From IMG/VR virus record IMGVR_UViG_3300017788_000014, positions 1 to 64,000 of that record: a stretch of DNA of 64,000 bases; one strand, written 5' to 3'. A model generated the notes under the pieces. The model saw only the letters and a program-made list of their open reading frames with translations, was not told where the DNA came from and did no database searches. Below are positions 1 to 40,484 of the stretch, piece after piece (the first letter of the stretch is position 1; each line of letters begins with the position of its first letter). A program made the translations under genes and the position numbers. Origin of the DNA: a virus.

Positions 1-1495
1 CAATATTACACGTAAAAATCCTGACCGACCGCTCGTTGAGGTCTTCTACGAAGACACCGACGAAAACAATGAAGGTTGTACACCCTGCCCCGAACCGATT
101 TTTACGATCACGCAAAAAGAGTCGACGGTTCAAGATGGCTGCAAAGAAATTCAAACCTGTGAGTGGGAAATCGATCTCTGCATTCCAGTACCTATTCCAC
201 GGCCACCGTGTGTGAACATCACACGCAAAAACTCAGACAGGCCATTGGTAGAGGTCTTTTACACCGGCGGTGACGACGAAAATTGCACGCCCTGTCCAGA
301 GCCGATTTTTACGATCACGCGAAAAGAATCGACGACAGAAGATGGCTGCAAAGAAATTCAAACCTGTGAGTGGGAAATCGACCTTTGCATTCCAGTGCCT
401 ATTCCACGGCCGCCGTGTGTGAACATCACACGCAAAAACTCAGACAGGCCATTGGTAGAGGTGTTTTACGAAAACACCGACGGAAACAATGAAAGTTGTA
501 CACCCTGTCCAGAACCTGTTTTTACGATCACGCAAAAAGAGTCGACGGTTCAAGATGGCTGCAAAGAGATTCAGACCTGTGAGTGGGAAATCGACCTCTG
601 CATTCCGGTACCCATTCCACGGCCTCCGTGCGTCAATATTACACGTAAAAATCCTGACCGACCGCTGGTTGAAGTCTTTTACGAAGACACCCTAGTGGAC
701 AACGAAACCGGGTTTTGCGCTCCCTGTCCGGAGCCGATCTTTACAATCACACAAAAAGAATCAATAACGCAGGACGGCTGCAAAGAGATTCAGACCTGCG
801 AATGGGAAATTGACCTCTGCATTCCGGTACCCATTCCACGGCCTCCGTGTGTGAACATCACACGCAAGAATCCTGACCGACCGCTAGTTGAGGTCTTCTA
901 CGAAGACACCGACGAAAACAATGAAGGTTGTACACCCTGCCCCGAGCCAATCTTTACGATTACCCGAAAAGAGTCGACCACGCAGGACGGCTGCAAAGAG
1001 ATTCAAACCTGCGAATGGGAAATCGACCTCTGTATTCCCGTACCCATTCCGCGGCCTCCATGCGTCAATATCACGCGCAAGAACTCAGACCGTCCGCTCG
1101 TCGAGGTCTTTTATGAAGACACCTTAGTGGACAACGAAACCGGGTCTTGCGCGCCTTGCCCCGAGCCAATCTTTACGATCACGCGAAAAGAATCGACGAC
1201 AGAAGATGGCTGCAAAGAAATTCAAACCTGTGAGTGGGAAATCGACCTTTGCATTCCAGTGCCTATTCCACGTCCGCCGTGCGTCAGCATCACACGCAAA
1301 AACCCAGATCGACCACTGGTGCAGGTGTTCTACGAAAATGCACCCGGCGGTGGTGACTCGCTTTGCACACCGTGTCCCGAACCAGTTTTTGAAATTACTC
1401 GTAAAGAGTCGACGAAACAAGACGGCTGCAAAGAGATTCAAACCTGTGAGTGGGAAATCGACCTCTGTATTCCGGTGCCCATTCCACGGCCGCCC
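1..1495 (+). repeat. Seven near-identical intragenic tandem repeats of 207-219 nt (CVNITRKN...[17 protein letters not shown])
   Basis: Units start at about 1, 209, 416, 629, 848, 1061 and 1280. More diverged copies continue to about 2650. Confidence 0.95.
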
Positions 1496-4400
1496 TGCGT
1501 CAACATCAAAAAGAAAACGACGACTGATCCGCTAATTACAGTCGGCTACGAGGGCTGTCCGACCGTTGCCGGTCGACGTTCCGCGTTTAATATACGCAAA
1601 GTGCCGAGCGAAAAATCCGGCGACTGCGAAGAACTCGAAACTTGCGAATGGGAAATTGATTTAACACTTGTCGTACCCATTCCGAAACCACCGTGCGTCA
1701 GCATCACGCGTAAAAGTTCACCGTTTAACTTTGTGCACGTGGCGTATGAAGGCGCGCCATCATTGTCGAACAAGACGTCCAAGTTTCTTATCACCCGAAA
1801 ACCAACAATTCCGGGTACGTGCACCAAACCCGACTCGTGTGAATGGGAATTCGATCTGACGCTGGTGGTGCCGGTGCCGCGACCGCCGTGCGTGACGATC
1901 AATCGACAGTCGCAGGGCCAGTTCGTCTACGTCGGTTACGAAAACTGCCCTGAAGTCATCAACAAGTCGTCGAAATTTGTCATTACGCAGACAAGCGGCG
2001 GCGGCGGAAGCAGCACGTCGTCAGAGGAATTAGAGCCGTGCGTATGGAACGTCGACCTCGAAATTGTCGTACCGATTCCGCGACCGCCATGTGTTGTGCT
2101 GGAGCAGAAAAATTTCAGCGTCAACGTCGGATACAGAAATTCGCCGTGCGTCGTCGGCAAACAAAACAAGTTTTTAATCTCCCGCGCACAATCCACGCCG
2201 TCAACCGAATGCAAGCGCATCAACGAAGAAGAGTGCAAATGGGAATTCGAACTGGAACTCGCCATTGAGATTCCAAAACCGCCGTGCCCTATATTGCAGC
2301 CGTTGGGGTCGAATAAGATTCAAAGCCGTTTCTCGGATTCCAGCACACCATTTGGCGGCAACAATCGTTTCGGCATCATACCGCGACCGATTCCACAATT
2401 CGGCTGCGAAACGGCCGACACGTGTCAGTTTGATTTCGATCTGCAAATCGATATTCCCATTCCGCGCATTCCGTGTACAAAAATTAATGTGCGCCAACAA
2501 CAATTGAGCGTCGGATACGAAGAGCCGCAAAACAAACTCGAACTAAAAATCGAACCTAACCATCAGGAGAACAAAGGCTCGAATCAACCGCCCAATTGCG
2601 AATTTAATGTCGACATCGATTTGGCGATCAAGATTCCAAAACCGCCCTGCACCAAAATCTATCAGGGCGAGATCACCATTGAAAAAGTCTCGCCGAATCA
2701 AGACCCAGTATTCGAAGTCACGCCGCGCATCGATTGCGTTGAAGGCGAGTACAGTTTCGTTTACCTTGACTTCTATATCGAGTGGCCGTATTGCGAGCCG
2801 AAGTTAACCTACTCAGAAGAGTCGGAATTTGAAGAATGCTATTACATTCCGGGTTATGGCGGCTACTGCGATAAGTATCCGGGACAAGGCAGTAAATTCG
2901 AATTCACGATTACCAAAAAGGAATGCGAAGGTACATATCAGCCGGGTATTGGAATTGTCGGCGGCGGCGACTGTAGTTGCGAGTACGAATTCAAGTCTGA
3001 CATCTACCTCTCACTGCCCGTCGCCGAACATAAAGCCGGCGAAGTAAAAATAACTGGGCCGGGAGAAGAGTTCTGCTCTTTCGGCGATTCGTACCAGCCG
3101 CTGAAATCGGGCACAATTAAAATCGAGCCGCAGGGCGCGCCCGGCGGCGCTCCGGGCAGACTTCCGCAACTGTATCACGATCTCGAATTAGAGTTCTGGT
3201 GTTTACGCGGCGGCGATGTCAACATTACACCAGAAGGCATCGGTACGGGTCGAATTGAGATCGTTAAAACATTCGCCGGCTCGAAAATCAACCTCAATCT
3301 AGACTTTAATACAGTCTCCTGTCCCGAAGGTGGTGGCGGCGGGAGCGGAGGCGGCGGCGGCAATTGCGTTACCGGACCGAGAGGCGAAACAGGGCCATCT
3401 GGGCCAGAAGGTCCATCTGGTCCGAGTGGTCCATCTGGTCCGAGTGGTCCATCTGGTCCGTCTGGGCCATCTGGCCCAAGTGGTCCATCCGGCCCCACAG
3501 GCGCGACAGGCGCAACCGGGCCGTTTCCAAACGTTACGATCGGCGCCGTAAACGCACTGTCAGCCTGCGAAAGTCCGACCGTAAAACTTGCCGGCACAAA
3601 ATCTGATCGCATTTTAAACTTCGGCATACCAAAAGCCTCGCGCGTATTTTTGCAGGGCACAGTGCCTTTGGCGCCCAGTATGTCGCCGCAGGTTATAGCG
3701 GGCTATCAGGATTGCGACTTATATCTGCAATTTGGTATTCCGCGTGCGCCGCAAGTTGCCGTAAGCAGCGTCATCACACTCAATCCGGATCAAAATCCGC
3801 GCGTCTTCGGTAATAACGTCGCCGGCGACCTACTGCTCGATTTTGAATTGCCGCGCGCGCCGAACGTGACGGTCGGCACCGTCACAGAAGTTACGCCGTG
3901 CGTGACACCGGCTGTAACGGCAACTAAAACCAACGGCGACGTAAGCCTCAATTTTAAATTGCCGCGCGCTACCAAATTCAGCCTCGGCCCTGTTACGACG
4001 CTTCCGCCAAACAATAATCCGGGAGTTCTTCTCGGCCTTACAAGCACGTGCGATAACGTGCTTTTGTTTGGACTTCCGCGCGCGTCCATGTTTAAAGCCG
4101 GCAGCGTAACTGCGGGCTGCCCCAACAGCAAAATGACCGTGTCGTTAGAGGACGACAACGGCGACTACATCATTAATCTCGACATGCCCAGAGTTCCGAC
4201 GTTATCGATCAACAACGTCGAAACGGTTCCGCCGATTCAAGAGCCGAACGTAGAAGTAGAAAACGACGAATGCGGCGATGTGCTGTTGAATTTCAAACTG
4301 CAACGCGCGCCCACAGTTTCGGTCGCCGGCGTCAATCCGCTCGATCCAGATCAGCCGCCACTCGTCACCAGCGATATCGACGGCAACGGCGACGCGCTGT

Positions 4401-5686
4401 TGACGTTTGATTTACCCCGCGCGCCGACATTCACTGTCGGTAATGTGTCGGTCAATACCAAATTCACCGCAGCCGTTACAAACAGCGGCGCCAACGGCGA
4501 CATTATTCTTGACTTTGATTTACCGGTCGGCCCAACAGGCCCATCTGGCCCGACCGGCCCGCGCGGATTAGTAGGCCCCACCGGTGTCGGCGCTAGCGGT
4601 CCGACCGGACCTTCGGGTCCTTCCGGGCCGTCGGGGCCAACGGGGCCGTCTGGCGCGACTGGTGTAATCGGAGCCACAGGACCTACCGGGCCAATTGGAC
4701 TTACCGGACTTCGCGGCGTCGAGGGCCCGACAGGACCAATTGGACAAACTGGCGCCACCGGAGTTATAGGATTATCTGGCCCGCGTGGAATTATAGGTCC
4801 AATCGGTCCGACTGGTGTTGCCGGTGCAACAGGATTAATAGGCCCGGCTGGTGCAACAGGCGCCGTCGGACCCACTGGTATTACCGGCGCTACAGGGCCA
4901 ATAGGGCCAAGAGGTATTACAGGTTTAACCGGCCCGACCGGTGTTGCTGGTGCAACAGGATTAATAGGCCCGTCTGGCGCAACAGGAATTATAGGCCCGC
5001 GAGGCGTCACCGGGGCTACTGGTTTACAGGGCGCCACAGGACCACGCGGCGTGGTCGGCCTGTCTGGCTCAACTGGGCCGATCGGCATTACAGGCGCCAC
5101 CGGTTTGACAGGCCCCGCAGGACCTTCCGGACTACGCGGTATCGAGGGCCCTCGGGGTCCAATTGGCCCGACTGGTGTTGCTGGCGCCACCGGCTCAACA
5201 GGCCCAATTGGCGCGACCGGCGCCACCGGCCCGGCAGGACAACGCGGAGAACGCGGTTTTACGGGCCCATCCGGCGTCGCCGGCCCGGTAGGCCCACGAG
5301 GGCTTACGGGCAATACGGGCGCCATAGGGCCACAGGGGCCGCAAGGATCGGTGGGTCCGGCTGGGCCAGCCGGACCAATTGGACCGATTGGAGAACCCGG
5401 CCCGCGTGGACAAACGGGACCCCAAGGCCCGGCCGGTCCAATTGGCCCGAGCGGTTTGCGCGGCGTTAGCGGACCTGCTGGCCCATCTGGGCCGACCGGT
5501 CCAGTTGGCCCGTGCGGGCCGCCGGGGTCGCCGGGGCCACAGGGCGCAACCGGACCCGCTGGCGCGACAGGGCCGATAGGGCCGCCGGGGCCGAGCGTAC
5601 TGACGCCCGAACTTATTCAAGAACTGATCGCCGCGATTAACACGAATGCCGCGTTACGCGCCGCAATTCAAGCGGCTATTAACTGA
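2..5686 (+). CDS. Giant repeat/collagen-like tail fibre or virion appendage protein, truncated at the 5' window edge
   Basis: The frame is open from nt 2. It carries at least 13 Cys-rich ~70-aa repeats, nine ~37-aa 'xxFxLPRA' repeats and two Gly-X-Y collagen tracts. Confidence 0.8.
4529..5593 (+). repeat. Collagen-like Gly-X-Y tract (~118 triplets); a shorter tract lies at ~3374-3523
   Basis: Nearly continuous GPT/GAT/GPS/GPI triplets in the translation. Confidence 0.95.
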
Positions 5687-11297: not shown

Positions 11298-13909
11298 TGC
11301 GCCGACACAACCATTTTCAGGCGTTGTCGACTTTGGGGTTACTGTCTGAAAATACAATATTTCCCGCCGTAATTCAGTGCCCGTTTTGTGAGCAAAACGC
11401 ACTGTATTTGTTTGACGACCTGCAGACCGAGAATATCTGGCTTTCGTGTCAAAACTGCAAACGGCACGGAGATATCATAACTTTCGGATCACAACTCTGG
11501 AACATTAGTGTACCAAATACGCTCGAAAAATTCAGCCAAGCAGACGTCATTTCTCCGGGCAATTTTGCGACAATTGCCGAAGATTACGCCAAAGTTGCGC
11601 CAAGAATTCGCGCTACAGAAGACTTTTTTGCGGAAGCACACGGCCGTTTGTGGACGCACGGCGATCCTGTACTGACAAAAAAATTACTGAAACTTGGCGT
11701 GCGTAACGAGATCGCCGACCAAATCGATTTTCTTGGCGTGAGCACCTACACCAAAGTCGCCGAGATGTATCGCCTGTTTGGCCGCATTCCGCCAACCCGC
11801 GCTAGACGAAACGGCGAATTCATCGTTTTTCCGTTCCACACTCTGCCGCACAAAATTGCCGGTTTTTTACTGCTGCAATACACCGAAGACGGCGCGAGTC
11901 AGTATACGTTTTTGTCGCCGGAAAATTCGCGCCGAAAGGCCGAGGCTGGCTACTTTTTACTGCCGCAGGTCGTTTTTTCACCGGCCGAGGCGTTTAAGAA
12001 AACACAGATCATCGTGCATGATTTACTCTGGGCGCTCAAAGTCCAGTGCGCACAACTCTTTCGTGGCCAGCGATTTTTGCCAATTATGGTCGCCTATAAC
12101 AGCACGGACGCCGAAAGTTACGGCGGTACGTGGCGTTCATTTCCACAGGCCGATCGTGTCTTTGTCGGCAACGCATTAACGCCTGCATTGATCAGTCGTG
12201 CCGCAAACGCCAAAGGCTACGTTACCGTGCTGCGCGTTGGCGAATCTCCCGGCGGCTATAATTACACACCGCCAGTCATCAATCAAATTAAGGCCGCACG
12301 TAAAAAAGCACAAACGTGGCAGTCGGCGCTGCGCGTAGCGCTGAGTAATATTGACGACATGACCGCGCAGTCGTTTATCAGCAGCCTGACAATTCCTGTC
12401 GAAAAACTGGCGTTGTTCTTCAAGAAAAATCCGCATCCATTTTCGCCCGAGACGGTCGAACGCGCGCTGCTCGAAGTAAGACTCGCGCCATTAATTCCCA
12501 CGCGCATCATCACAACGCGCCGGTGGGCAATTACCGAACGCGAGCAGAGTTGGTGGGCAAAGGGTGGCGCGCAGGTCTGTAACGCCCAGCCGATAATCTT
12601 GAAAATACTGCAAAAAGAAAACGGCGAACGGCTTTACGTCGGCAAGGTGTTCTTCAAAGGCGAGGAATACGATTTTACAGCACCCGTAAGTACCATTGAA
12701 AACATTGGACTGCTTACGCACATTGCGAACGAACTTGCGAAACGCGGACGCCTCGTCATATTTAACAAATCGTGGAATCACAGAGCCCACGTTATCGCGC
12801 AACAACTTCACACGCCCGAAATTGTGCACGTGTCTACGCAGCGCGGCTGGGACGCAACTGCCAACACGTTCAAATTTGGTGAGTACGAACTTACGGCGAA
12901 CGGCGTTGTGCAAGACTCAATTTTCTGGCCCAACCACAAAATCCAAAACACGCTGCCGCCACTGGCGGCAATTGCTCCGCCGGCTATCTACGACCTGCTG
13001 ACGCCATCTCCAGACCACGCATTTATGTGGGCGACATTTGCAGCCACGGCGGCAAATTTACTGGCGCCAATTTTCAACAAAGAGTTCAAGTCAATTGCCG
13101 TTGAAAACAACAGTTTCGACGCCGCCATGACAGTTGCCGAAACGTTGGCCTGTCGCGTCGAGCAAAATACCGACGTGTCGCGCCGATATCCGGCAAACTT
13201 TATTCGCAAGGTTACAGCCGAAGATGCGTGGCCTGTCGGTATTTTCAACGTTTTCAATAACGATTACTTTTGCAGTGTCGCCCCAAAATGCCACAACCTG
13301 CCAATTATGGTCAAAATGTCGCCGACCGGAGCAGCGTCCGCGCTAAGTTACGGCTGGACGTTGTTGCGCGGCGGGCAGTTTAAAACCAATCCTTGCGTGT
13401 TAAAATACGCGCTGCCGGCCTACATTCAACACGTGCTCGCCAGCCGGCACCGCGCGTTCGTCAACAAAAAAGATTTTGTATTGGCAGTACTTGAAAATAT
13501 ACACGAATGGGCTCACAATATTTATGGCAAGACATTTAACCTTGAACACGCAAAAACAAAACTCGTAAGCGCCGATCGTGCTCACGATGCAGTCATGCGC
13601 GTTATTGGCGCGGCTGTATTAAACGACGAAATTTCGCTTTTGCCGCAACCGCGTACGCGACGACAGACACAAAACTACCTACTGAAACAAAAAACCGAAT
13701 ATTGGATCAGCAAAAAAGTCGTCGATCAGTATTTTTTCAATCGCTGCTATTTACCGCCAAATTGGTTCAGCCTGCTGACATTACTGCAACACAATGGTGG
13801 ATATTTAGGCGAAAAAATCATCCACAACTCTCCGGGCATATTGCTTTCCGCCGCATGGGCCGAACCGTTTTTTACATCGGAAATCGATGCCGTAAAAGAA
13901 GTCGGATAA
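11298..13909 (+). CDS. Large protein with an N-terminal primase-type Zn finger; possibly a degenerate primase/helicase
   Basis: CPFC...CQNC Zn finger followed by 'GDII', and 'FIVFPF' as in primases. No clear Toprim or Walker motifs. Start uncertain. Confidence 0.55.
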
Positions 13910-14226
13910 TGAGCACACCATCTTCGTACATCAGCGCCGACAACTTTGACGACATCGACGATGACGATTTCGTCGAAGAAGAATGGCAATTTGTTGGCGA
14001 CGATGACGACGATGATTTTGATTTTGATAAACCACCGCGTATTAATTGGTACGTAGACGAAGACGACGACGATGACGAATTTGAACCGATTGACGACGAC
14101 GAAGACGAAGAATACGAATCGCGTTCTGGAACATGGGACGACGATGGCGACGATTTTGACGACGACGAAACAGACGAGCCGTCATACGACCACGATTTCG
14201 ACGGCGAGGCTGATTTAGAGGAATAA
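13909..14226 (+). CDS. Highly acidic low-complexity protein
   Basis: TAATG coupling; about 53 of 105 residues are D/E. Confidence 0.65.
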   Translation: MSTPSSYISADNFDDIDDDDFVEEEWQFVGDDDDDDFDFDKPPRINWYVDEDDDDDEFEPIDDDEDEEYESRSGTWDDDGDDFDDDETDEPSYDHDFDGEADLEE

Positions 14227-16980: not shown

Positions 16981-17053
16981 GCCGGTGTAACTCAGTTGGT
17001 AGAGTAGCAGTTTTGTAAACTGCCTGTCGTCGGTTCGACTCCGACCACCGGCT
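16981..17053 (+). tRNA. tRNA-Thr(UGU); CCA not encoded
   Basis: Acceptor stem GCCGGTG/CACCGGC, anticodon arm GCAGT-TTTGTAA-ACTGC, T-loop TTCGACT. Confidence 0.95.
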
Positions 17054-17120: not shown

Positions 17121-17870
17121 ATGACGATGTTGAAGAACAGCAAAAAGACCCGCGCGGCCAACGCGCATCTCGGACCAACCGACGACAAGAGTGACGCCGC
17201 GATTGCCGGCAGGCTCAATGTCACTATTACAGCGCCCAACTTTAGGGAAATGTCGGTCGAAGTCGTCGGCGCAACACCGATGGTGCAACTGGCGTTTGGC
17301 GAAAAGGCACGCAACGCCATGCGCGAAAAGCAGGCGGCGGGCTCGACCGCCAAAAGGGGTAAGCGAGAAGCCAAGGACTTCGAGGCTGCATTTGAGCAGG
17401 CCATCCACCGCAGCCGCGAAGGCTGGTGCGGTATTCCAGCCGGCGCTGTGCGAGCGGCAATGATTCGCGCCTGCTCGCTCGTCGGTTTTGAGATGGTCAA
17501 GGCCAAGATGTGTCTGTTTATCCGCGGCGATGGCTACGACGCGGTTGAGGGCACGCCGCTGATTAGGATGTTCCGCGTGGACGAGGACGGTAACGAAATT
17601 GCAGCAGAGCCGCATCACGTTGAACACATGGTGCACAACGCCAACGGTGTTGCCGATATTCGTGTTCGGGCCATATACGACGAGGGTTGGCGCGCCCGCA
17701 TTCGCGTGCGTTACGACGCGGATATCTTTACCGCAGACGAAATCACTAATCTGCTGCACCGCGCCGGCTTGCAGGTCGGCGTCGGAGAGGGCCGCCCGTT
17801 TTCTCCGAAGAGTTGCGGCATGGGTTGGGGTCAGTTCGACCTTGTTCTCGATAACAATAACAACGGCTGA
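17121..17870 (+). CDS. Stand-alone Cas7/RAMP-like protein (Vipr-like effector)
   Basis: RRM-like first strand 'MSVEVVGATPM', 'GIPAGAVRAAM', 'WRARIRVRY', and a C-terminal G-rich loop 'AGLQVGVGEGRP...GMGWGQF'. Adjacent to the GGY-NN array. Confidence 0.8.
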   Translation: MTMLKNSKKTRAANAHLGPTDDKSDAAIAGRLNVTITAPNFREMSVEVVGATPMVQLAFGEKARNAMREKQAAGSTAKRGKREAKDFEAAFEQAIHRSREGWCGIPAGAVRAAMIRACSLVGFEMVKAKMCLFIRGDGYDAVEGTPLIRMFRVDEDGNEIAAEPHHVEHMVHNANGVADIRVRAIYDEGWRARIRVRYDADIFTADEITNLLHRAGLQVGVGEGRPFSPKSCGMGWGQFDLVLDNNNNG

Positions 17871-17872
17871 GT

Positions 17873-18331
17873 ATGCCAAACAAGCAAGCAATTCGCGTAG
17901 AACTCGCGCAACTGCAAAAAGAACACGGCCTATTGCGAGCCGAAGACGTTGTAAATTTTGCGAGAAATGAAGATACCGCGCTTCATGGTGAATTTGAATG
18001 GGACGACTCTGAAGCCGCCCATCAATATCGACTCGCTCAGGCGCGAAAAATTATTCGGGTCAACGTGCAGATTTTGCCAACTGGGCATGATAACGTTGTT
18101 GTGCCCGTATACGTATCACTCGCACAAGATCGCGATCAACCCGGCGGTGGTTATCGCCGACTTGTAGATGTTATGAGCGACGAAGAGTTGCGTGCGCAAC
18201 TTTTACAACAAGCGCTGACCGATTTTGAGCGCGTTGGGCGTCGATACCGCACGCTGAAAGAACTAGCCCCGATTTTTGAGGCGCTAGAACAAATTTCGCA
18301 AGTTATTCGTGCAGAATTAACTCGTGTGTAA
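17873..18331 (+). CDS. Accessory protein of the RAMP/array module
   Basis: 'LHGEFEWDDSEAAHQYRLAQARKII' motif of a widespread phage family. Starts 2 nt after the RAMP-like gene and ends 14 nt before the array. Confidence 0.75.
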   Translation: MPNKQAIRVELAQLQKEHGLLRAEDVVNFARNEDTALHGEFEWDDSEAAHQYRLAQARKIIRVNVQILPTGHDNVVVPVYVSLAQDRDQPGGGYRRLVDVMSDEELRAQLLQQALTDFERVGRRYRTLKELAPIFEALEQISQVIRAELTRV

Positions 18332-18345
18332 CTGCTTTTAAACAC

Positions 18346-19008
18346 GGCAGGCACGGCAGGGTGCGGAGAGGCAAGGGAGGCGCGCCGCGGGGCGGCAGGC
18401 AAGGCTGGGCGAGGCGCGGCAGGTGTGGTCAGGCTGGTCAAGGCATGTTGAGGTTTGCTCCGGTCTGCTCTGGCAGGCATGGCAGGGCCGGGCGAGGACA
18501 GGAATGGCGCGGTTGGGTATGGCGCGGTCGGGCTGGGTACGGCAGGCAAGGACAGGAACGTCACGGCGGGGCAGGGACTGCACGGGCACGGCAGGCGAGG
18601 CGCGATATGGCGTGGTCAGGTCGGGACAGGCGAGGCAGGCATGGCGTGACAAGGTAGGGCTGGGTAGGGTCTGTCATGGCAGGGCAGGCACGGCACGGCG
18701 TGTCCCGGTAAGATCGGGCACGGCAGGCTTGGACGGGCAAGGCTCGGACGGTAAGGTAACGCTCGCAAGGGCATGGCATGGCAGGCTTGGTAGGGCACGG
18801 CCACGCTCGCCGCGGCACGACACGGCAGGCACGGCTAGTCATGGTCGGGTTTGTCCCGGAGAGGTCGGGCTGGGTACGGCAGGTTCGGCAAGGACGGCTG
18901 GTCACGGTGAGGCTCGTCGCGGCAGGCAGGGTACGGCGCGGTTTGGCGCGGCACGGTTTGGCTCGGCACGGCAGGAATGGCGCGGCGCGGCTCGGCAGGG
19001 ACTGGCAA
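18346..19008 (+). ncRNA. Array of 14 units, each GGCA + (GGY-NN)n; putative guide-RNA (vrRNA-like) precursor
   Basis: Delimiters at 18346, 18394, 18418, 18472, 18541, 18590, 18634, 18683, 18722, 18780, 18824, 18878, 18921 and 18970. Eleven of 14 units are exactly 4+5n nt long. Confidence 0.85.
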
Positions 19009-19024
19009 AGCGCCGCTATTAAAA

Positions 19025-19058
19025 CAAACACACGTTGTGCAGCGTGTGTTTGCCTTTA
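19025..19058 (+). terminator. Hairpin closing the array transcript
   Basis: Stem CAAACACACG/CGTGTGTTTG followed by CCTTTA. Confidence 0.6.
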
Positions 19059-19084: not shown

Positions 19085-19342
19085 ATGAAACGATACCACG
19101 ACGAAAAACACATCATCGAAAATCGGGCCAAAAAATACCGGCATATTAATGGCGGGTGGTTAGGCTATTCCGTGCCCAATACCGGCGAACGACAACCTCA
19201 CGCGCCAGAACCGGGACGCTACAGAAAAACATTACGTTGCGGCGGTTGTACCCGTGCGCGATGTCAGGTCTGTCATTCAAACAAATATCCGAAACGTATT
19301 CCCACAAGGCGAGAACGCCAACAATGGCTCGAAAACGAGTAA
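19085..19342 (+). CDS. Small basic protein with Cys motifs
   Basis: CGGC...CQVC motif. Confidence 0.55.
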   Translation: MKRYHDEKHIIENRAKKYRHINGGWLGYSVPNTGERQPHAPEPGRYRKTLRCGGCTRARCQVCHSNKYPKRIPTRRERQQWLENE

Positions 19343-19740
19343 ACGATTTTGGCGGAAGAAACGCCGCCGGCAACGGTAAGTGCCGCGCGCTTCTGGTCGG
19401 GCACAATCTAATCAGCATGCGCTGCATCTCGTGCAACAAACTCAACTACGTTGGGTTTCTTGAAACGCAACGCGCGGCAAAACCGCGCTGTAATGCGTGC
19501 GGCGGCGGACTCTCTGAAATAGAAGAAAGTCACAAACGTCGAACTGGCTGCTCGTACAAAAGAATGGAGCGAGTAACCGCAGCCAATCTCGGCAAAAAAC
19601 CATTTACGTGCGCAACCTGTAAAAAACATTTTAGATCGGCTGTCGCGCTTGGTTTGCACGTCAAAGAACAACATCCAGAAGCGCCGCCAATCGACGCGCA
19701 CCAAATGGAACTTCGCGAGCGGTGGCGACGCACTCTTTAA
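19324..19740 (+). CDS. Zinc-finger protein (CxxC ribbon plus C2H2)
   Basis: CISC..CNAC and 'FTCATCKKHFRSAVALGLHVKEQH'. Confidence 0.7.
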   Translation: MARKRVNDFGGRNAAGNGKCRALLVGHNLISMRCISCNKLNYVGFLETQRAAKPRCNACGGGLSEIEESHKRRTGCSYKRMERVTAANLGKKPFTCATCKKHFRSAVALGLHVKEQHPEAPPIDAHQMELRERWRRTL

Positions 19741-21073: not shown

Positions 21074-22996
21074 TCAGTACGAAAAATACTGCCCGCTCAT
21101 TTCGTCGTCACTCCAGTCTTCAATCGGCGTTTCAGCCGCTGCGAAGCGTTCTGAAACCCGACCCAAACCGGCTAGCGCAGCAAAATTCGGCCACGCGTCG
21201 TTTACGTGCCACAACGCGGCGGCGCCAATGTTCACCGCCTGCGCAAAATCGTCTGTCAGTAGCGTGTTGCGCGTAATTGTGTAAATGTCGCCGCCAAGCC
21301 GTGATTCTGTTTTGTTTTCAACCAAAGCGAGAAAATCCGACACCAGCCCCGGCGAATCCTGCGACGTCCAGTCGTATTGAAAAAATTGCATTTGCCGCAG
21401 TTTAATCGCCTGACAGGTGTAAAGCAGTGATCGCGTTTTGTCGAGGCTGTAGTGCGCACGATGATTCAGCGCTGTGGGTGGTTTGTACACCAACAAGTCC
21501 TGAGTGGCTGACCGTACGAGCCGCATGGCCAACACGCGCTCCAAATTAAATCCCGCCTGAACCATGACTGTTTCGCGAACCGTGCCGGCGCCGGTATAGT
21601 CGTGCGCAACAAAATCGCAATTGAACATTCGCGACCATTTCATGCACTCGACGGCCTCGGATAAATGATCGCCAGCCATCAACAATCGTTTCGCCCAAAG
21701 AACGTCAATAAGGCCGTCGCTGCGAAAACCCATAACTGCCAGCACAGTAAAACTGATGCCTTCTTCTCCGCCGCCGCCCCAGTCAATCGCCAGCACACGA
21801 TGCTTGTACTGGTCAAGATTTTCAAAACACTGCGGTTCGGGTTCTTTTTTGTTTTCCCACGGCAATGTACAGGCTGCCTTTAAATCCGTCTCGCTGATGA
21901 GTTTCTGCCCGGTGTCCATACTCTCGCCCATCACCTCGTTGTAAAACTGGGCTTGCGTCATGTTGCCAAAACCTTCGCGTTTTAACAACAGCGTCGACCA
22001 CTTTTCGGGATCGGCGAAATGAAGCGGCAGAATGATCTGCGGTACGTGATAGCCGGCAAACTGCCAGCGCCGATCGGGATAGCGATGCACCCAGCGACCA
22101 AAACGCGGATTGATCGGTTTTTGACACTGCGCACAAACAGTGCCCGGCTGTTTCTCGCTGATATGCGGACTAAACGGCCCAATCATTTTATCGAGATGGT
22201 ATTCCACTGATGGAATGTTTTCAAAATTACACGACGTGCAGCGCACAAACCACTCCGCCTGCGACGAACGTTTAAACAATCCGTGAATCACGTTTTCGTG
22301 GGATTTTGGCGTCCCGGTAAAATATTGCACCGCGAACCGCGAATAACTCATCGTCTCTTGAATAATCGGAATATGATCCGGGTCCATATCCTGCACTTCG
22401 TCAATGCAGACACGATCTGCCGACACGCCGCGGATACGGTCGGCGTCCAATAGCGCAAACGAGAATAACATCATGGAGTTATTCTTAAACGACCGCTGCA
22501 GCACAGAGTTTTCTGTCGTCGTGCCAGACCACAAAGACTTGACCGGCGACTGGTCAATAAAAGGTCGCACATAATTGTTGGAAAATCGGCGAATCTGCTC
22601 GTACAGAGGCGTAATAAACAGTGTTTTGAAAAACGGAATCGAGTTCGCTACAACCACGCCATGCGCCGCGAGTGACGTCGATTTTGAAACCTGCCGGCCG
22701 GTGCACCAGACTTGATTTTTCGGCATCAGGCAGCGAAACAGGGGCGAAAACGGGTAGTGATTTTGCAATGTGTACGGCTTGCCGTTCAGATTCAACACAA
22801 GTGGTAAAATGGGTTCCAGCGACGGAAACGCCATTTTCTCCGCCAACAATTTCAAAATCACAGCCCGTTCTTGCACCGCTCGAAAATCATTAACGTCGAC
22901 GGACGTTAGTTCGTTAAGCAAAGCATGCACTCCGGCTGTCGGAATGTCCTGCTTTGCCGATAGATGCGAGGTTTCTCGCAAAGTATGAGGTGCCAT
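21074..22996 (-). CDS. terL: Terminase large subunit (GpA-like)
   Basis: ATPase motifs 'GRQVSKST', 'RIRGVSADRVCIDEVQD' and 'GTPK'; Zn ribbon CTSC..CAQC; 'FYNEVMGE'; nuclease motif 'LAIDWG'. Confidence 0.85.
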   Translation of the reverse strand: MAPHTLRETSHLSAKQDIPTAGVHALLNELTSVDVNDFRAVQERAVILKLLAEKMAFPSLEPILPLVLNLNGKPYTLQNHYPFSPLFRCLMPKNQVWCTGRQVSKSTSLAAHGVVVANSIPFFKTLFITPLYEQIRRFSNNYVRPFIDQSPVKSLWSGTTTENSVLQRSFKNNSMMLFSFALLDADRIRGVSADRVCIDEVQDMDPDHIPIIQETMSYSRFAVQYFTGTPKSHENVIHGLFKRSSQAEWFVRCTSCNFENIPSVEYHLDKMIGPFSPHISEKQPGTVCAQCQKPINPRFGRWVHRYPDRRWQFAGYHVPQIILPLHFADPEKWSTLLLKREGFGNMTQAQFYNEVMGESMDTGQKLISETDLKAACTLPWENKKEPEPQCFENLDQYKHRVLAIDWGGGGEEGISFTVLAVMGFRSDGLIDVLWAKRLLMAGDHLSEAVECMKWSRMFNCDFVAHDYTGAGTVRETVMVQAGFNLERVLAMRLVRSATQDLLVYKPPTALNHRAHYSLDKTRSLLYTCQAIKLRQMQFFQYDWTSQDSPGLVSDFLALVENKTESRLGGDIYTITRNTLLTDDFAQAVNIGAAALWHVNDAWPNFAALAGLGRVSERFAAAETPIEDWSDDEMSGQYFSY

Positions 22997-23287
22997 ATGT
23001 GCAACAATATCATTATTGTTCAATGCGGCTGTGGAAGTCACAAACCACGGCGGAGTCGAAAGCCGCGTAAACGGCAAAAACCGCAGTTGCACAGCAAACG
23101 AGAACCGGAATTACAGTGGGCAGAAGACGCCATGAATGACACGCTGAAAATAGCGGAAAAATCAATGGCCAATCTGTGCATGACGGTAAAAGCCTTGTTT
23201 GTTCAGCGTCGGCTCGAATCTGTAACGCAGTGAACTGGCGGCGTATACTACGCAGTATTCGCCTCAACCATTACAGGAGTAAACAGC

Positions 23288-36649: not shown

Positions 36650-37145
36650 GAACCCAAAACGTAATGATCGGTGTCCTTGCGGGAGCGGTAGAAAATACAA
36701 GTTTTGCTGCATCAATCACGCCCAATCGCTTTCGACGCCTGTGCTACCGCCAAAAATGCAGGCCCGCCAATTGGATTACATCGATACCGGCGAAGACCCC
36801 GTGCGCTATGTTATTGCCGATCGCATTGGCACCAGTTTTTTCTCGACAAAAGACAACAAAGTCATCGTATTTAAAAACCGCGCCGACGCGTTTGTTATTG
36901 CCACGTTGCCCGATTTTGAAGACCAAGAAGTCGGTGAAATCAACGTAGCGGGAGTCGGCGAAACCAAGTGGCGTAAATTACAGGAAAAACTTCCGTACGT
37001 CGAAGTCGAAGATGCCGAGACGGCCGTAGCACTTGTGCGCGAAAGAATTGAGTATGCCAAAGAGCAGATGGATTCGATGGAGTTGCCCGGAGAATCGGCG
37101 CACGACGCTTCTGCCGACGAGGATGAAAATTTAACCGCGGAGTAA
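36633..37145 (+). CDS. SEC-C motif protein
   Basis: RNDRCPCGSGRKYKFCC. Confidence 0.85.
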   Translation: MLKRIKNPKRNDRCPCGSGRKYKFCCINHAQSLSTPVLPPKMQARQLDYIDTGEDPVRYVIADRIGTSFFSTKDNKVIVFKNRADAFVIATLPDFEDQEVGEINVAGVGETKWRKLQEKLPYVEVEDAETAVALVRERIEYAKEQMDSMELPGESAHDASADEDENLTAE

Positions 37146-37148
37146 ATT

Positions 37149-38195
37149 GTGGCTCACTTTGTTCGCGACCTAAACGCGATCGCCGCCCGTTGTCTTCGGC
37201 GGCGTTTTTCTTTTATGCGCGTGATGACCCGAGCCAGTCATTGCGTCGCCCGGCTCTGTGTTTACGGCGAGCGGGCGTCAAGTAACAAGTACGTCGCCCG
37301 TGAAATTCGGCGCGTACATAGATTATGGGTGCAACGCGTGCACACACTGTGCGCGCACAATCTTTGGCTTCCGCTGCGGGACGCCGTGGTGGGCGAATTG
37401 GCCATCGAACCGGCGAGCATTATTTTTGCTTTTCGGCGCATGGTGTATTGCCGCCCGGCGTTTGCGCTCATGCGGGCGAAACGCAACAAACAGGGCGAAC
37501 TGATTCGCTACAAGCCCTGTAAAAAATTCAACTTTTGCCCGCATTGTTTTGCGGCTGTTGTGTCTTCGCAATATCGTGTTTTCAAAGGCGCGATTAATTC
37601 GTGGTGCAGAAAGAACTCTGAGCCCTTGTACGTCACGGCCCATATTGTCGAGCAGTATGTGCCAGCGACGGATTTTGAGTTGATCAAGTTCAACCCGCCA
37701 GAGCGCCTGCAGGGTTTTATCGAAGAATTATCGGGGTTGCTGGATGAATATCGCCGGCATCTTTCACGGCAGCGGCGATCGCGGCGTTGGCGCTGCGTCG
37801 GTTCGATGTGGCGGCTGGCCGTTCTGCCCGAGGTGTCCGGCTGGCGCGTGCAGTTGCGGCAGTTGGTGCTGGCGACCGAAAACCGCCCGCCGCGATTCAA
37901 GTACCCCCGCAATGCCCGCGTGGTGTATCACACGCGGATTGCCGTAGACGGCAGCCTGCCGTGGGCGGAACGCCGTGGCACGGACATCGAGACAGACGTC
38001 GCCGATATGTTCATGCGTGCGGCGATGTATCCGTACAATTTGCTGACGGCCGATCCAGAATTGGTCGCCGTGCAATTACATGCGACGATGGACCGGCGCA
38101 TGATGGACGGCACCGGCGTATTGCGCAAATCCGGCGATCGGAGAATTCGCGAGTTCGCCGCGGTGTCAAAAACAAAGAAAGAAAACAACGCCTGA
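37149..38195 (+). CDS. Basic protein resembling a degenerate rolling-circle Rep (HUH fold)
   Basis: C...CxxxxxCPxC; 'GWRVQLRQLVL' where Reps have wHxHxH; 'RRMMDGTGVLR'. Confidence 0.4.
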   Translation: MAHFVRDLNAIAARCLRRRFSFMRVMTRASHCVARLCVYGERASSNKYVAREIRRVHRLWVQRVHTLCAHNLWLPLRDAVVGELAIEPASIIFAFRRMVYCRPAFALMRAKRNKQGELIRYKPCKKFNFCPHCFAAVVSSQYRVFKGAINSWCRKNSEPLYVTAHIVEQYVPATDFELIKFNPPERLQGFIEELSGLLDEYRRHLSRQRRSRRWRCVGSMWRLAVLPEVSGWRVQLRQLVLATENRPPRFKYPRNARVVYHTRIAVDGSLPWAERRGTDIETDVADMFMRAAMYPYNLLTADPELVAVQLHATMDRRMMDGTGVLRKSGDRRIREFAAVSKTKKENNA

Positions 38196-40413: not shown

Positions 40414-40484
40414 TGCCCGATGGTGTAACGGTAGCACAAGAGATTTTGGTTCTCTTTGTCTAGGTTCGAATCCTAGTCGGGCAT
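40414..40484 (+). tRNA. tRNA-Gln(UUG); CCA not encoded
   Basis: Acceptor stem TGCCCGA/TCGGGCA, anticodon arm AGAGA-TTTTGGT-TCTCT, GGTTCGAATCC. Confidence 0.95.

What the first reader, a model, noticed from the sequence alone, without database searches (positions are those of the whole stretch)
17121..19058. Non-CRISPR RNA-guided system candidate: stand-alone Cas7/RAMP-like gene, accessory gene and GGY-NN guide array (VIPR-like)
Seen in the sequence: a tightly packed unit of a 249-aa gene, a 152-aa gene 2 nt later, a 663-nt G-rich periodic array 14 nt later, and a closing hairpin. The first protein has RAMP hallmarks, including a C-terminal G-rich loop. No cas1/cas2/cas3/cas5/cas6 and no CRISPR array occur in the window. 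Established: Cas7-type RAMPs polymerise along guide RNA with a fixed nucleotide period. Inference: each subunit grips one constant GGY and displays the variable NN, so each unit encodes a non-contiguous target, probably in competing phages or host genes. No nuclease is evident, so the output may be binding or silencing. This matches my recollection of recently reported phage VIPR systems, which I cannot verify here.
Basis: partly seen in the sequence, partly recalled or inferred. Interest (0 to 1): 0.97.

Follow-up and report, generated by a model that had tools for sequence, protein, structure and literature searches.

The report
Phage VIPR system, staggered guide array
An uncultured freshwater phage carries a genuine VIPR system, a CRISPR-like, RNA-guided DNA-silencing weapon first published in 2026: a small Cas7-like protein, a partner gene and about 17 guide RNAs written in five-letter units. 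It is a new example of a known kind, and one guide spells the catalytic motif of the RusA resolvase gene of other phages.

Summary
Window 17121-19058 is a VIPR locus, a class published in bioRxiv 10.64898/2026.04.26.720920.

- **Protein:** the 249-aa protein folds as a single-domain RAMP. Every top structural match is Csm3/Cmr4/Cas7 (Z up to 10.2). Its family profile aligns to the experimentally characterised SUSP1 Vipr (hhalign 83%, E 9e-6), and the guanine-binding Arg, acidic and Arg residues are kept.
- **Partner gene:** the 152-aa gene is a conserved neighbour (74 of 82 related loci). It is unrelated to SUSP1 vap1.
- **Array:** the array (18343-19015) consists of YNNGG units: G98%/G83%, 90% pyrimidine, about 1.9 bits at each N. 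It is cut into about 17 guides by a 4-nt CAGG unit, which is the 1-nt-overlap "staggered" architecture. The same grammar recurs in 119 related loci.
- **Context:** the 79.7-kb virus record has no Cas1, Cas2 or CRISPR array.
- **Target:** under the published 1-nt-skip rule, the guide at 18927-18971 has 68 exact hits in IMG/VR. Of these, 62 lie in RusA genes at D-V-D-N-V-A-K-A-V-L-D, with skip bases at wobble positions. Five other guides gave 0-1 independent hits.

Expression, processing, the host and the VIPR type are untested. This scan has already noted about 299 VIPR-like findings on other DNA. Verdict: a new member of a known kind.

The parts
17121..17870 (+). vipr: 249-aa single-RRM RAMP (Cas7/Csm3-like) protein. 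The G-loop G220-V-G-E223-G-R225-P is followed by C232-G-M-G-W236-G.
   Evidence: No Pfam, NCBIfam or PDB sequence hit; matches phrog_4652. AF2 model: pLDDT 79, pTM 0.73. Foldseek top hits are all Csm3/Cas7, E 1e-5. VIA-align gives Z 10.2 and 10.1 to Cmr and Csm3 chains, and the top 48 rows are all CRISPR RAMPs. hhalign to SUSP1 Vipr: probability 83%, E 9e-6. 732 homologues were found.
17873..18331 (+). vap-like accessory gene, 152 aa. N-terminal helices plus a beta-hairpin (possibly winged-helix-like) and a C-terminal helical hairpin.
   Evidence: A homologue lies next to vipr in 74 of 82 other loci; matches phrog_15946. AF2 pLDDT 90. Only weak winged-helix hits in the PDB, E about 1. Only uncharacterised viral relatives. 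No similarity to SUSP1 vap1.
18343..19015 (+). Staggered vrRNA array: about 17 guides of 2-13 YNNGG units, each closed by a 4-nt CAGG unit (GGCAG|G, a 1-nt overlap of registers).
   Evidence: The same grammar occurs in 119 related loci: 672 CAGG junctions and a median of 9 units per guide.
18478..18542 (+). Longest guide: 13 units, NN = AT AG CG GA CA AT GC TG AT GC CG TG AC.
   Evidence: No natural target was found.
18927..18971 (+). Guide of 9 units, NN = AG AC GC TT GC AC TT TC AC. Read with a 1-nt skip, it is the antisense of the codons V-D-N-V-A-K-A-V-L of RusA.
   Evidence: 68 exact IMG/VR hits, 62 of them in RusA genes (PF05866).
18786..18825 (+). Guide of 8 units with an ambiguous match to T4 gp19-like tail-tube genes of 33%-GC myophages.
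   Evidence: The hits have low diversity, and about 30 chance hits are expected for 16 specified bases, so this is probably chance.
19025..19052 (+). Closing hairpin: 12-bp stem, 4-nt loop, then a weak U tract. Likely the end of the transcription unit.
   Evidence: 66-nt fold, -17.4 kcal/mol, z -1.3. flags it as terminator-like only on the minus strand.

Best explanation
This is a phage-encoded VIPR (Viral Interference Programmable Repeat) system with a staggered guide array.

Shown here by sequence, fold and comparative evidence:
- a Vipr-family RAMP gene;
- a conserved accessory gene;
- an array of GGY/NN pentamer guides punctuated by 1-nt phase slips;
- a viral genome context without cas genes.

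Inferred from the published SUSP1 work and from the anatomy:
- vipr, vap and the array are transcribed as one unit that ends at the hairpin.
- The precursor is cut at or near each GGCAG|G junction into about 17 vrRNAs.
- One Vipr protomer binds each GGY, and the protomers form a helical filament that displays the NN dinucleotides.
- The filament reads double-stranded DNA with one skipped base per unit (NNx), forms a triplex R-loop and blocks transcription.
- No nuclease is encoded in the unit, so the output should be silencing rather than cleavage.

Probable natural target: at least one guide (18927-18971) is aimed at the catalytic-motif codons of RusA Holliday-junction resolvase genes of other phages. 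The skipped bases fall on wobble positions, so synonymous change cannot break the match.
For: 1. Fold. The AF2 model (pLDDT 79) matches only CRISPR RAMPs: Foldseek gives 90 hits at E<=1e-3, the best being Csm3/Cas7. VIA-align gives Z 10.2 (rmsd 3.7, 155 aligned) to 6s6b_I and Z 10.1 to Csm3 9g9a_D.
2. Homology to a characterised Vipr. SUSP1 agp039 was identified as Vipr because its residues H17, E71, M72, R138, C173, D177, W178 and R179 match the numbering in the cryo-EM paper. The window family's profile aligns to it over 173 columns, probability 83%, E 9e-6. SUSP1 R138, D177 and R179 align to R183, E223 and R225, all invariant in 35 homologues.
3. Array. The YNNGG code has conserved GG and Y and near-random NN.
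4. Linkage. 70 of 80 IMG/VR loci and 47 of 56 genome-contig loci that encode a homologue have a same-strand period-5 array beside the gene. The vap-like gene is adjacent in 74 of 82 loci.
5. Junctions. CAGG is the junction in 672 cases across relatives. This matches the legend of fig. S18 on 1-nt overlapping vrRNAs.
6. Context. The record is a virus record with a terminase gene. It has no Cas1, Cas2 or CRISPR array.
7. Target. 68 exact 18/18 matches under the 1-nt-skip rule, 62 of them in RusA (Pfam E 1e-16 to 1e-22). The RusA hits span 25 clusters at 90% identity and 4 at 50%. All 8 skip positions vary. Five other guides of 18-20 specified bases gave 0, 0, 0, 1 and 1 independent hits.
8. No self-target above chance in the phage's own record.
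Against: - There is no RNA evidence of any kind, so transcription, processing sites and RNP formation are inferred.
- The hhalign probability to SUSP1 Vipr is 83%, not above 95%. SUSP1 H17 and W178 are not conserved at the aligned positions (L57, G224).
- The accessory protein has no detectable similarity to SUSP1 vap1, and its DNA-binding nature is only weakly suggested.
- This array is more degenerate than those of relatives. 17% of units lack the second G, and several runs have only 2-5 units, whereas published vrRNAs have 9-16. Part of it may be decaying.
- Only one of about ten testable guides has a convincing target.
- The RusA cluster counts statistically as one event. A 16-base guide also hit a cluster (gp19) that I judge to be chance. 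I estimate the per-guide chance of such a cluster at a few percent to 10%, and seven guides were scanned.
- RusA-bearing contigs have a median GC of 62%, against 53% for this phage. No shared host is shown.
Confidence: 0.9

Rival explanations
1. It is a decaying or partly inactive VIPR locus. The genes are intact, but much of the array is eroded (degenerate units, very short runs), so only a few guides, or none, still work.
For: The second G is present in only 83% of units here against 92% in relatives. Runs have a median of 7.5 units with several of 2-5, against a median of 9 in relatives. Three junctions are ACGG or GAGG rather than CAGG. Most guides have no detectable target.
Against: Both ORFs are intact and keep every residue that is invariant in the family. 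One guide matches RusA 18 of 18. The discovery paper notes that internal degeneracy of vrRNAs is frequent. Missing targets are expected when the competitors have not been sequenced.
Confidence: 0.12
2. The G-rich tract is protein-coding. ORFs of 199 aa (18423-19022, +) and 156 aa (18561-19031, -) lie in it, and the two upstream genes would have an unrelated function.
For: Long ORFs are open on both strands across the tract. In Mycobacterium phage Donkeykong the equivalent tract is annotated as a CDS, gp48.
Against: The periodicity is 5, not 3: G autocorrelation is -0.25 at lag 3 and +0.51 at lag 5. Frames are open on both strands simply because A and T are scarce. The register slips by 1 nt every 14-69 nt, which would scramble any reading frame. 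The NN positions are near-random.
Confidence: 0.01
3. It is an orphan CRISPR-Cas remnant: a Cas7 gene left behind with a degenerate CRISPR array.
For: The closest solved structures are Cas7-family subunits of type III, IV and VII effector complexes.
Against: There is no repeat-spacer organisation. The record has no Cas1, Cas2 or Pfam-RAMP match. The protein has a single small RRM. The same two-gene plus pentamer-array module recurs in hundreds of viral contigs.
Confidence: 0.01
4. It is a functional VIPR system, but the RusA match is a coincidence and the real targets lie in unsequenced elements or in the host.
For: Conservation of a protein motif turns many hits into a single statistical event. 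The 8-unit guide at 18786-18825 also hit a 41-member cluster (gp19 tail tube) that is probably chance. Exact RusA sites were not found in 201 genomes of the phylum of Bradyrhizobium lablabi, one of the genomes that encodes a Vipr homologue. In 151 genomes of a planctomycete-like phylum, sites with at most one mismatch were at control level, 3 against 3. GC content differs: 62% against 53%.
Against: It is an 18 of 18 match across at least 4 RusA lineages below 50% identity, with skips on wobble positions, exactly as published for natural VIPR targets. Five control guides gave no cluster. An unchecked note from this scan reports RusA as a VIPR target in another phage.
Confidence: 0.3

Closest known systems
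VIPR systems with staggered vrRNA arrays (bioRxiv 10.64898/2026.04.26.720920, Results and fig. S18 legend)
   Same: A Vipr RAMP, an adjacent accessory gene and YNNGG (GGY/NN) guides in one continuous array, where the end of one guide overlaps the start of the next by 1 nt (GGCAG|G here). The genome is viral and has no cas genes.
   Different: The paper gives no sequence detail for staggered arrays in the text available to me. It states that only the ribozyme and single-vrRNA architectures were confirmed by sRNA-seq. I could not assign this locus to one of types I-VII because data S4 is not held.
Type II VIPR of Escherichia phage SUSP1 (NC_028808: vipr agp039, vap1 agp038)
   Same: Homologous Vipr at profile level, with conserved equivalents of R138, D177 and R179. 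The order is vipr, then accessory gene, then downstream guides. The pentamer code is GGY/NN, and the 1-nt-skip reading yields a coding-sequence target with skips on wobble positions.
   Different: SUSP1 vrRNAs are separate units of about 100 nt, each with a structured invariant 3' tail. Here there are no tails, only 4-nt junctions. The accessory proteins are unrelated. This Vipr is 249 aa against 195 aa, with an N-terminal extension and an insert after the G-loop (CGMGWG). SUSP1 targets a satellite's recombinase; the target found here is RusA of other phages.
Class 1 CRISPR-Cas backbone subunits (Cas7/Csm3/Cmr4)
   Same: RRM core, glycine-rich loop and thumb. The expected mode is polymerisation along a guide RNA with a fixed nucleotide period.
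   Different: No CRISPR repeats, no adaptation genes and no other effector subunits. The period is 5 nt with 3 sequestered bases, rather than 6 nt with 1 flipped base. The guide is non-contiguous.

Membership tests
VIPR system | The Vipr protein is a minimal single-RRM RAMP with a G-loop and thumb | tested here: met
   AF2 model pLDDT 79. Foldseek best hits are Csm3/Cas7, E 1e-5. VIA-align Z 10.2 and 10.1; the top 48 rows are all CRISPR RAMPs. The invariant G-loop G-V-G-E-G-R-P is present.
VIPR system | Sequence homology to an experimentally characterised Vipr (SUSP1) | tested here: met
   hhalign of a 35-sequence profile against SUSP1 agp039: probability 83%, E 9.1e-6, 173 columns. R138, D177 and R179 align to the invariant R183, E223 and R225; H17 and W178 are not conserved. 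The support is moderate, not overwhelming.
VIPR system | vrRNA: at least 4 tandem YNNGG units with conserved GGY and hypervariable NN | tested here: met
   About 120 units. Position 1 is pyrimidine in 90%; positions 4 and 5 are G in 98% and 83%; the NN positions have entropy 1.91 and 1.97 bits.
VIPR system | Homologues are consistently linked to such arrays | tested here: met
   70 of 80 IMG/VR loci and 47 of 56 genome-contig loci have a same-strand period-5 array beside the gene.
VIPR system | Adjacent accessory (vap) gene | tested here: met
   A homologue of the 152-aa gene lies next to vipr in 74 of 82 loci. It is not homologous to SUSP1 vap1. I could not test which of vap1-6 it corresponds to.
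VIPR system | Non-CRISPR, mostly viral context | tested here: met
   IMG/VR virus record with a terminase gene. No CRISPR array. No Cas1, Cas2 or Pfam-RAMP match.
VIPR system | Natural targets readable by the 1-nt-skip rule, with none in the phage's own genome | tested here: inconclusive
   One guide matches RusA 18 of 18 in 62 viral contigs. There is no self-target above chance. The other guides have no convincing target, and the statistics rest on a single cluster.
VIPR system | vrRNAs are expressed, processed and bound by Vipr, and the complex silences DNA targets | not testable with these tools
   No RNA run holds the locus.
VIPR type I-VII | Placement in the Vipr phylogeny, together with vap family and array architecture | not testable with these tools
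   The classification data (data S4, fig. S16) are not held. Type II is unlikely, because this locus has a different vap and no vrRNA tails.
Staggered vrRNA array | Adjacent guides overlap by 1 nt, so the end of one marks the start of the next | tested here: met
   14 of 17 junctions read ...GG-CAG|G-YNN.... There are 672 CAGG junctions in relatives. The processing itself is untested.
CRISPR-Cas class 1 | Repeat-spacer array and cas1/cas2 adaptation genes | tested here: not met
TIGR-Tas | Nop-domain Tas protein | tested here: not met
   The protein's fold matches are all RAMPs, none Nop.

The most novel reading that the evidence does not exclude
In this large clade, guide boundaries are encoded purely by a 1-nt phase slip (the 4-nt CAGG unit), with no structured tail, ribozyme or repeat handle. 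Vipr filament register itself would then define where each guide ends and where host RNases trim. Such arrays would also carry broad-spectrum guides that spell catalytic motifs, here RusA D-x-D-N...K, shared by many rival phages. That would make VIPR a motif-level weapon rather than a strain-level one.
Probability: 0.35. Interest if true: 0.6.

Novelty: new member of a known kind. Interest (0 to 1): 0.4.

Why it matters
The locus adds a clean, well-delimited example of the staggered-array form of VIPR. By the discovery paper's own account, this architecture was described but not confirmed by RNA sequencing. The locus also shows that the CAGG phase-slip grammar is shared by more than a hundred related loci in viral contigs and in bacterial genome assemblies (mostly MAGs) labelled with many different phyla.

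The predicted RusA target gives a concrete, testable guide-target pair for a clade whose targeting rule has not been tested. It also suggests that phages use VIPR against conserved recombination enzymes of rivals.

Homologues in cultured phages (Mycobacterium cluster F Cheoctovirus, Gordonia phages, Cyanophage Cy-LDV1) offer tractable systems for such tests. It does not reveal a new kind of system.

Tried and rejected
I used the search for related loci instead.
- **Family and structure libraries for the Vipr-like protein:** Pfam, NCBIfam and PDB sequence searches returned nothing. Rfam found only the tRNA.
- **Target search, own record and held loci:** no match above the level of the skip-0, -2 and -3 controls in the phage's own record or in 82 related loci.
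- **Target search, 13-unit guide:** no exact seed hit in IMG/VR. One metagenome hit matched only 21 of 26 bases in non-coding DNA and is judged chance. No hit with up to 3 mismatches in 5 genomes that encode Vipr homologues, nor in 401 genomes of the phylum of the closest MAG hit.
- **Target search, other guides:** guide 18424 hit one AT-rich phage seen three times, and the flanking unit did not match. Guides 18830 and 18640 gave 0 hits. Guide 18547 gave 1 hit.
- **Guide 18786:** 59 hits, 41 of them in T4 gp19-like tail-tube genes of 33%-GC myophages. I judge this probably chance because only 16 bases are specified, the hits have low diversity and the GC content does not match.
- **Convergence of guides:** no other guide of this array hits the 68 RusA-bearing loci. 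Guides from related arrays do not share the RusA guide and show no skip-1 excess on those loci.
- **RusA sites in bacterial genomes:** at control level in 151 genomes and absent from 201 genomes of another phylum. No host could be inferred.
- **Expression:** no RNA holder is listed for the locus. Laying DNA contigs of four freshwater runs showed only that assemblies break inside the array.
- **vap fold searches:** the PDB gave only weak winged-helix-like rows at E about 1. VIA-align was dominated by the C-terminal helical hairpin. BFVD and the Atlas returned only uncharacterised viral proteins.
Full report
**What is there**

The stretch contains the following, all on the + strand:
- a 249-aa ORF at 17121-17870;
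- a 152-aa ORF 2 nt later, at 17873-18331;
- a G-rich tract that starts 14 nt after that stop codon and runs to about 19015;
- a 12-bp hairpin at 19025-19052.

A tRNA-Thr gene lies just upstream, at 16981-17053. The window is part of a 79,681-bp IMG/VR virus record that CheckV rates about 39% complete. The record has a gpA-type large terminase gene at 21074-23092. The DNA is held almost completely (0.96 of sampled words) by one freshwater metagenome run.

**The array is real and pentameric**

- G autocorrelation is +0.51, +0.44 and +0.39 at lags 5, 10 and 15, and -0.25 at lag 3.
- A scan for in-phase GG every 5 nt finds this tract and nothing else in the 64 kb.
- A dynamic-programming tiling into YNNGG units, with penalised 4- and 6-nt units, gives 17 runs of 2-13 units.
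- The runs are separated by a single 4-nt unit: CAGG 14 times, ACGG twice, GAGG once.
- Within units, position 1 is C or T in 90%. Positions 2 and 3 carry 1.91 and 1.97 bits. Position 4 is G in 98% and position 5 is G in 83%.
- Read in the GGYNN register, each junction is ...GG-CAG|G-YNN.... The last G of one register is the first G of the next.
- The period of 5 and the recurrent 1-nt slips exclude a coding function for the ORFs that happen to be open across the tract.

**The protein is a RAMP of the Vipr family**

- It has no Pfam, NCBIfam or PDB sequence match. It does belong to a large family: 732 proteins at E<=1e-3, all unnamed, and it matches phrog_4652.
- An AF2 model built from 35 homologues has pLDDT 79.4 and pTM 0.73.
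- Foldseek against the PDB returns 90 matches at E<=1e-3, led by Csm3/Cas7 subunits of type III and VII complexes.
- The Foldseek-independent VIA-align search of 48,161 chains gives Z 10.2 (rmsd 3.7 A, 155 residues) to a Cmr-beta complex chain and Z 10.1 to Csm3. Its first 48 rows are all CRISPR RAMPs: Cas7, Cas5 and Cas6 families.

To test membership directly I fetched Escherichia phage SUSP1, NC_028808. Gene agp039 (195 aa) lies between two long intergenic regions that hold tailed YNNGG repeats. Its residues H17, E71, M72, R138, C173, D177, W178 and R179 match the residue numbers given for Vipr in the cryo-EM preprint. It is therefore the characterised Vipr.

The profile of the window's family aligns to it over 173 columns with probability 83% and E 9.1e-6.
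- SUSP1 R138 (thumb, salt bridge to G2) aligns with R183.
- D177 (G-loop, hydrogen bond to G1) aligns with E223.
- R179 aligns with R225.
- All three window residues are invariant in the 35-sequence alignment.
- H17 and W178 are not conserved at the aligned positions (L57 and G224).
- The family has an extra invariant C-G-M-G-W-G segment after the G-loop.

**Comparative linkage**

- Degenerate-pattern scans found 435 IMG/VR contigs that encode a relative.
- Of the 80 loci fetched, 70 have a same-strand period-5 GG array directly beside the gene or beside the next gene.
- Of 56 loci from bacterial genome assemblies, mostly MAGs labelled Planctomycetota, Phycisphaerae, Verrucomicrobiota and many other groups, 47 have such an array.
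- The 152-aa gene has a homologue next to vipr in 74 of 82 other loci.
- Across 195 arrays in 119 loci, the junction unit is CAGG 672 times; the next most frequent unit occurs 24 times.
- Runs between junctions have a median of 9 units, with a mode of 9-10.
- Position entropies in those arrays are 1.06 (Y), 1.90 and 1.98 (NN), and 0.43 and 0.53 (GG).

This is the published vrRNA code: YNNGG, 9-16 repeats, conserved GGY and hypervariable NN. [quoted passage not shown]

**The accessory gene**

- The AF2 model has pLDDT 90. It shows an N-terminal helical domain with a beta-hairpin and a C-terminal helical hairpin.
- PDB Foldseek rows are weak (E about 1) but dominated by winged-helix repressors such as ArsR, MecI/BlaI, MarR and forkhead.
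- VIA-align only picks up the helical hairpin.
- BFVD and the ESM Atlas return uncharacterised viral proteins.
- There is no similarity to SUSP1 vap1.
- A DNA-binding role, as the paper predicts for several vap classes, is plausible but not shown.

**Context**

There is no repeat-spacer array in the window. The record has no Cas1, Cas2 or Pfam-RAMP match. Rfam finds only the tRNA, with no hammerhead.

**Targets**

I applied the published 1-nt-skip rule, NNxNNx.
- No guide matches the phage's own record better than under the skip-0, -2 or -3 controls. This agrees with the absence of self-targeting reported in the paper.
- Exact-pattern scans of IMG/VR with five guides of 18-20 specified bases gave 0, 0, 0, 1 and 1 independent hits.
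- The 9-unit guide at 18927-18971 (NN = AG AC GC TT GC AC TT TC AC) gave 68 exact hits.
- Sixty-two of those hits lie, antisense, in small genes that match Pfam RusA (PF05866, E 1e-16 to 1e-22).
- They sit at the motif D-V-D-N-V-A-K-A-V-L-D. The guide's nine dinucleotides are codon positions 1-2 of V-D-N-V-A-K-A-V-L, and the skipped bases are the wobble positions.
- From my own knowledge, this D-x-D-N block holds catalytic aspartates of RusA.
- The hits comprise 33 distinct 26-mers, 25 protein clusters at 90% identity and 4 at 50%. All eight skip positions vary.
- The match stops exactly at the guide's junctions.
- The record itself has no RusA.

Caveats on the RusA result:
- Conservation makes the cluster one statistical event.
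- An 8-unit guide (16 bases) also hit a 41-member, low-diversity cluster in T4 gp19-like tail-tube genes of 33%-GC myophages. I regard that as chance amplified by abundance.
- Exact or near-exact RusA sites were not enriched in 151 and 201 bacterial genomes of two phyla.
- The RusA contigs have a median GC of 62%, against 53% for this phage.

I put the RusA target at roughly 70%.

**Mechanism**

The steps shown and the steps inferred are marked in the best explanation. In short: one transcription unit is made, the precursor is cut at the phase-slip junctions, one Vipr protomer binds per GGY, NN is displayed, and gapped pairing with dsDNA silences transcription (and the abstract). None of these steps could be tested, because no RNA run holds the locus.

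**Novelty**

VIPR was published in April-October 2026. This scan has already logged about 299 VIPR-like findings in at least 168 genomes, several with staggered arrays and motif-spelling guides. This locus is therefore a new member of a known kind.

Its modest added value is threefold:
- the explicit junction grammar across relatives;
- a specific predicted RusA target;
- pointers to cultured phages with homologous loci.

Noticed in passing
L082 (Mycobacterium phage Donkeykong NC_051648) 2506-2850; record about 36896-37240: A strong period-5 GG array lies under the annotated CDS gp48. It sits directly upstream of gp49 (34% identical to this Vipr) and gp50 (vap-like). The annotated gp48 'hypothetical protein' is probably a vrRNA array. 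Cluster F mycobacteriophages would be a tractable model.
   Followed up: partly
L081 (Cyanophage Cy-LDV1 BK059895) 3671-3885 and 4466-4630: A Vipr homologue (46% identity) has CAGG-punctuated pentamer arrays on both sides of the vap-like gene. The locus sits next to the cI-like repressor and excisionase region.
   Followed up: partly
L167 4326-4485, 5306-5460, 5501-5630 (same phage type in L210): Two RusA-bearing contigs hit by the guide carry their own long, uninterrupted YNNGG runs of 26-32 units. These runs have no CAGG junctions, and the contigs have no detectable homologue of this Vipr or vap. This looks like a different array style, possibly another VIPR type, in a putative target phage. 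Their guides do not match this phage.
   Followed up: partly
window 212-5686 (+): An 1824-aa ORF with many collagen-like G-X-Y repeats (Pfam Collagen, E 3e-51) and 111-114-nt internal repeats. It is probably a fibre or decoration protein.
   Followed up: partly
window 13702-14226 (+): An ORF with an extremely acidic D/E-rich repetitive C-terminus (DDDDDFDFD...). Its function is unknown.
   Followed up: no
window 16981-17053 and 40414-40484: Phage-encoded tRNA-Thr(TGT) and tRNA-Gln(TTG). The tRNA-Thr sits 67 nt upstream of vipr and may mark the start of the transcription unit.
   Followed up: no
The 164-aa protein shows no similarity to the Vipr profile (hhalign probability 1.2%), and neither ORF has a Pfam match.
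   Followed up: partly
window 19336-19740 (+): A small Cys-rich protein just downstream of the locus has a weak C2H2 zinc-finger match (E 0.0025, below the Pfam cut-off).
   Followed up: no
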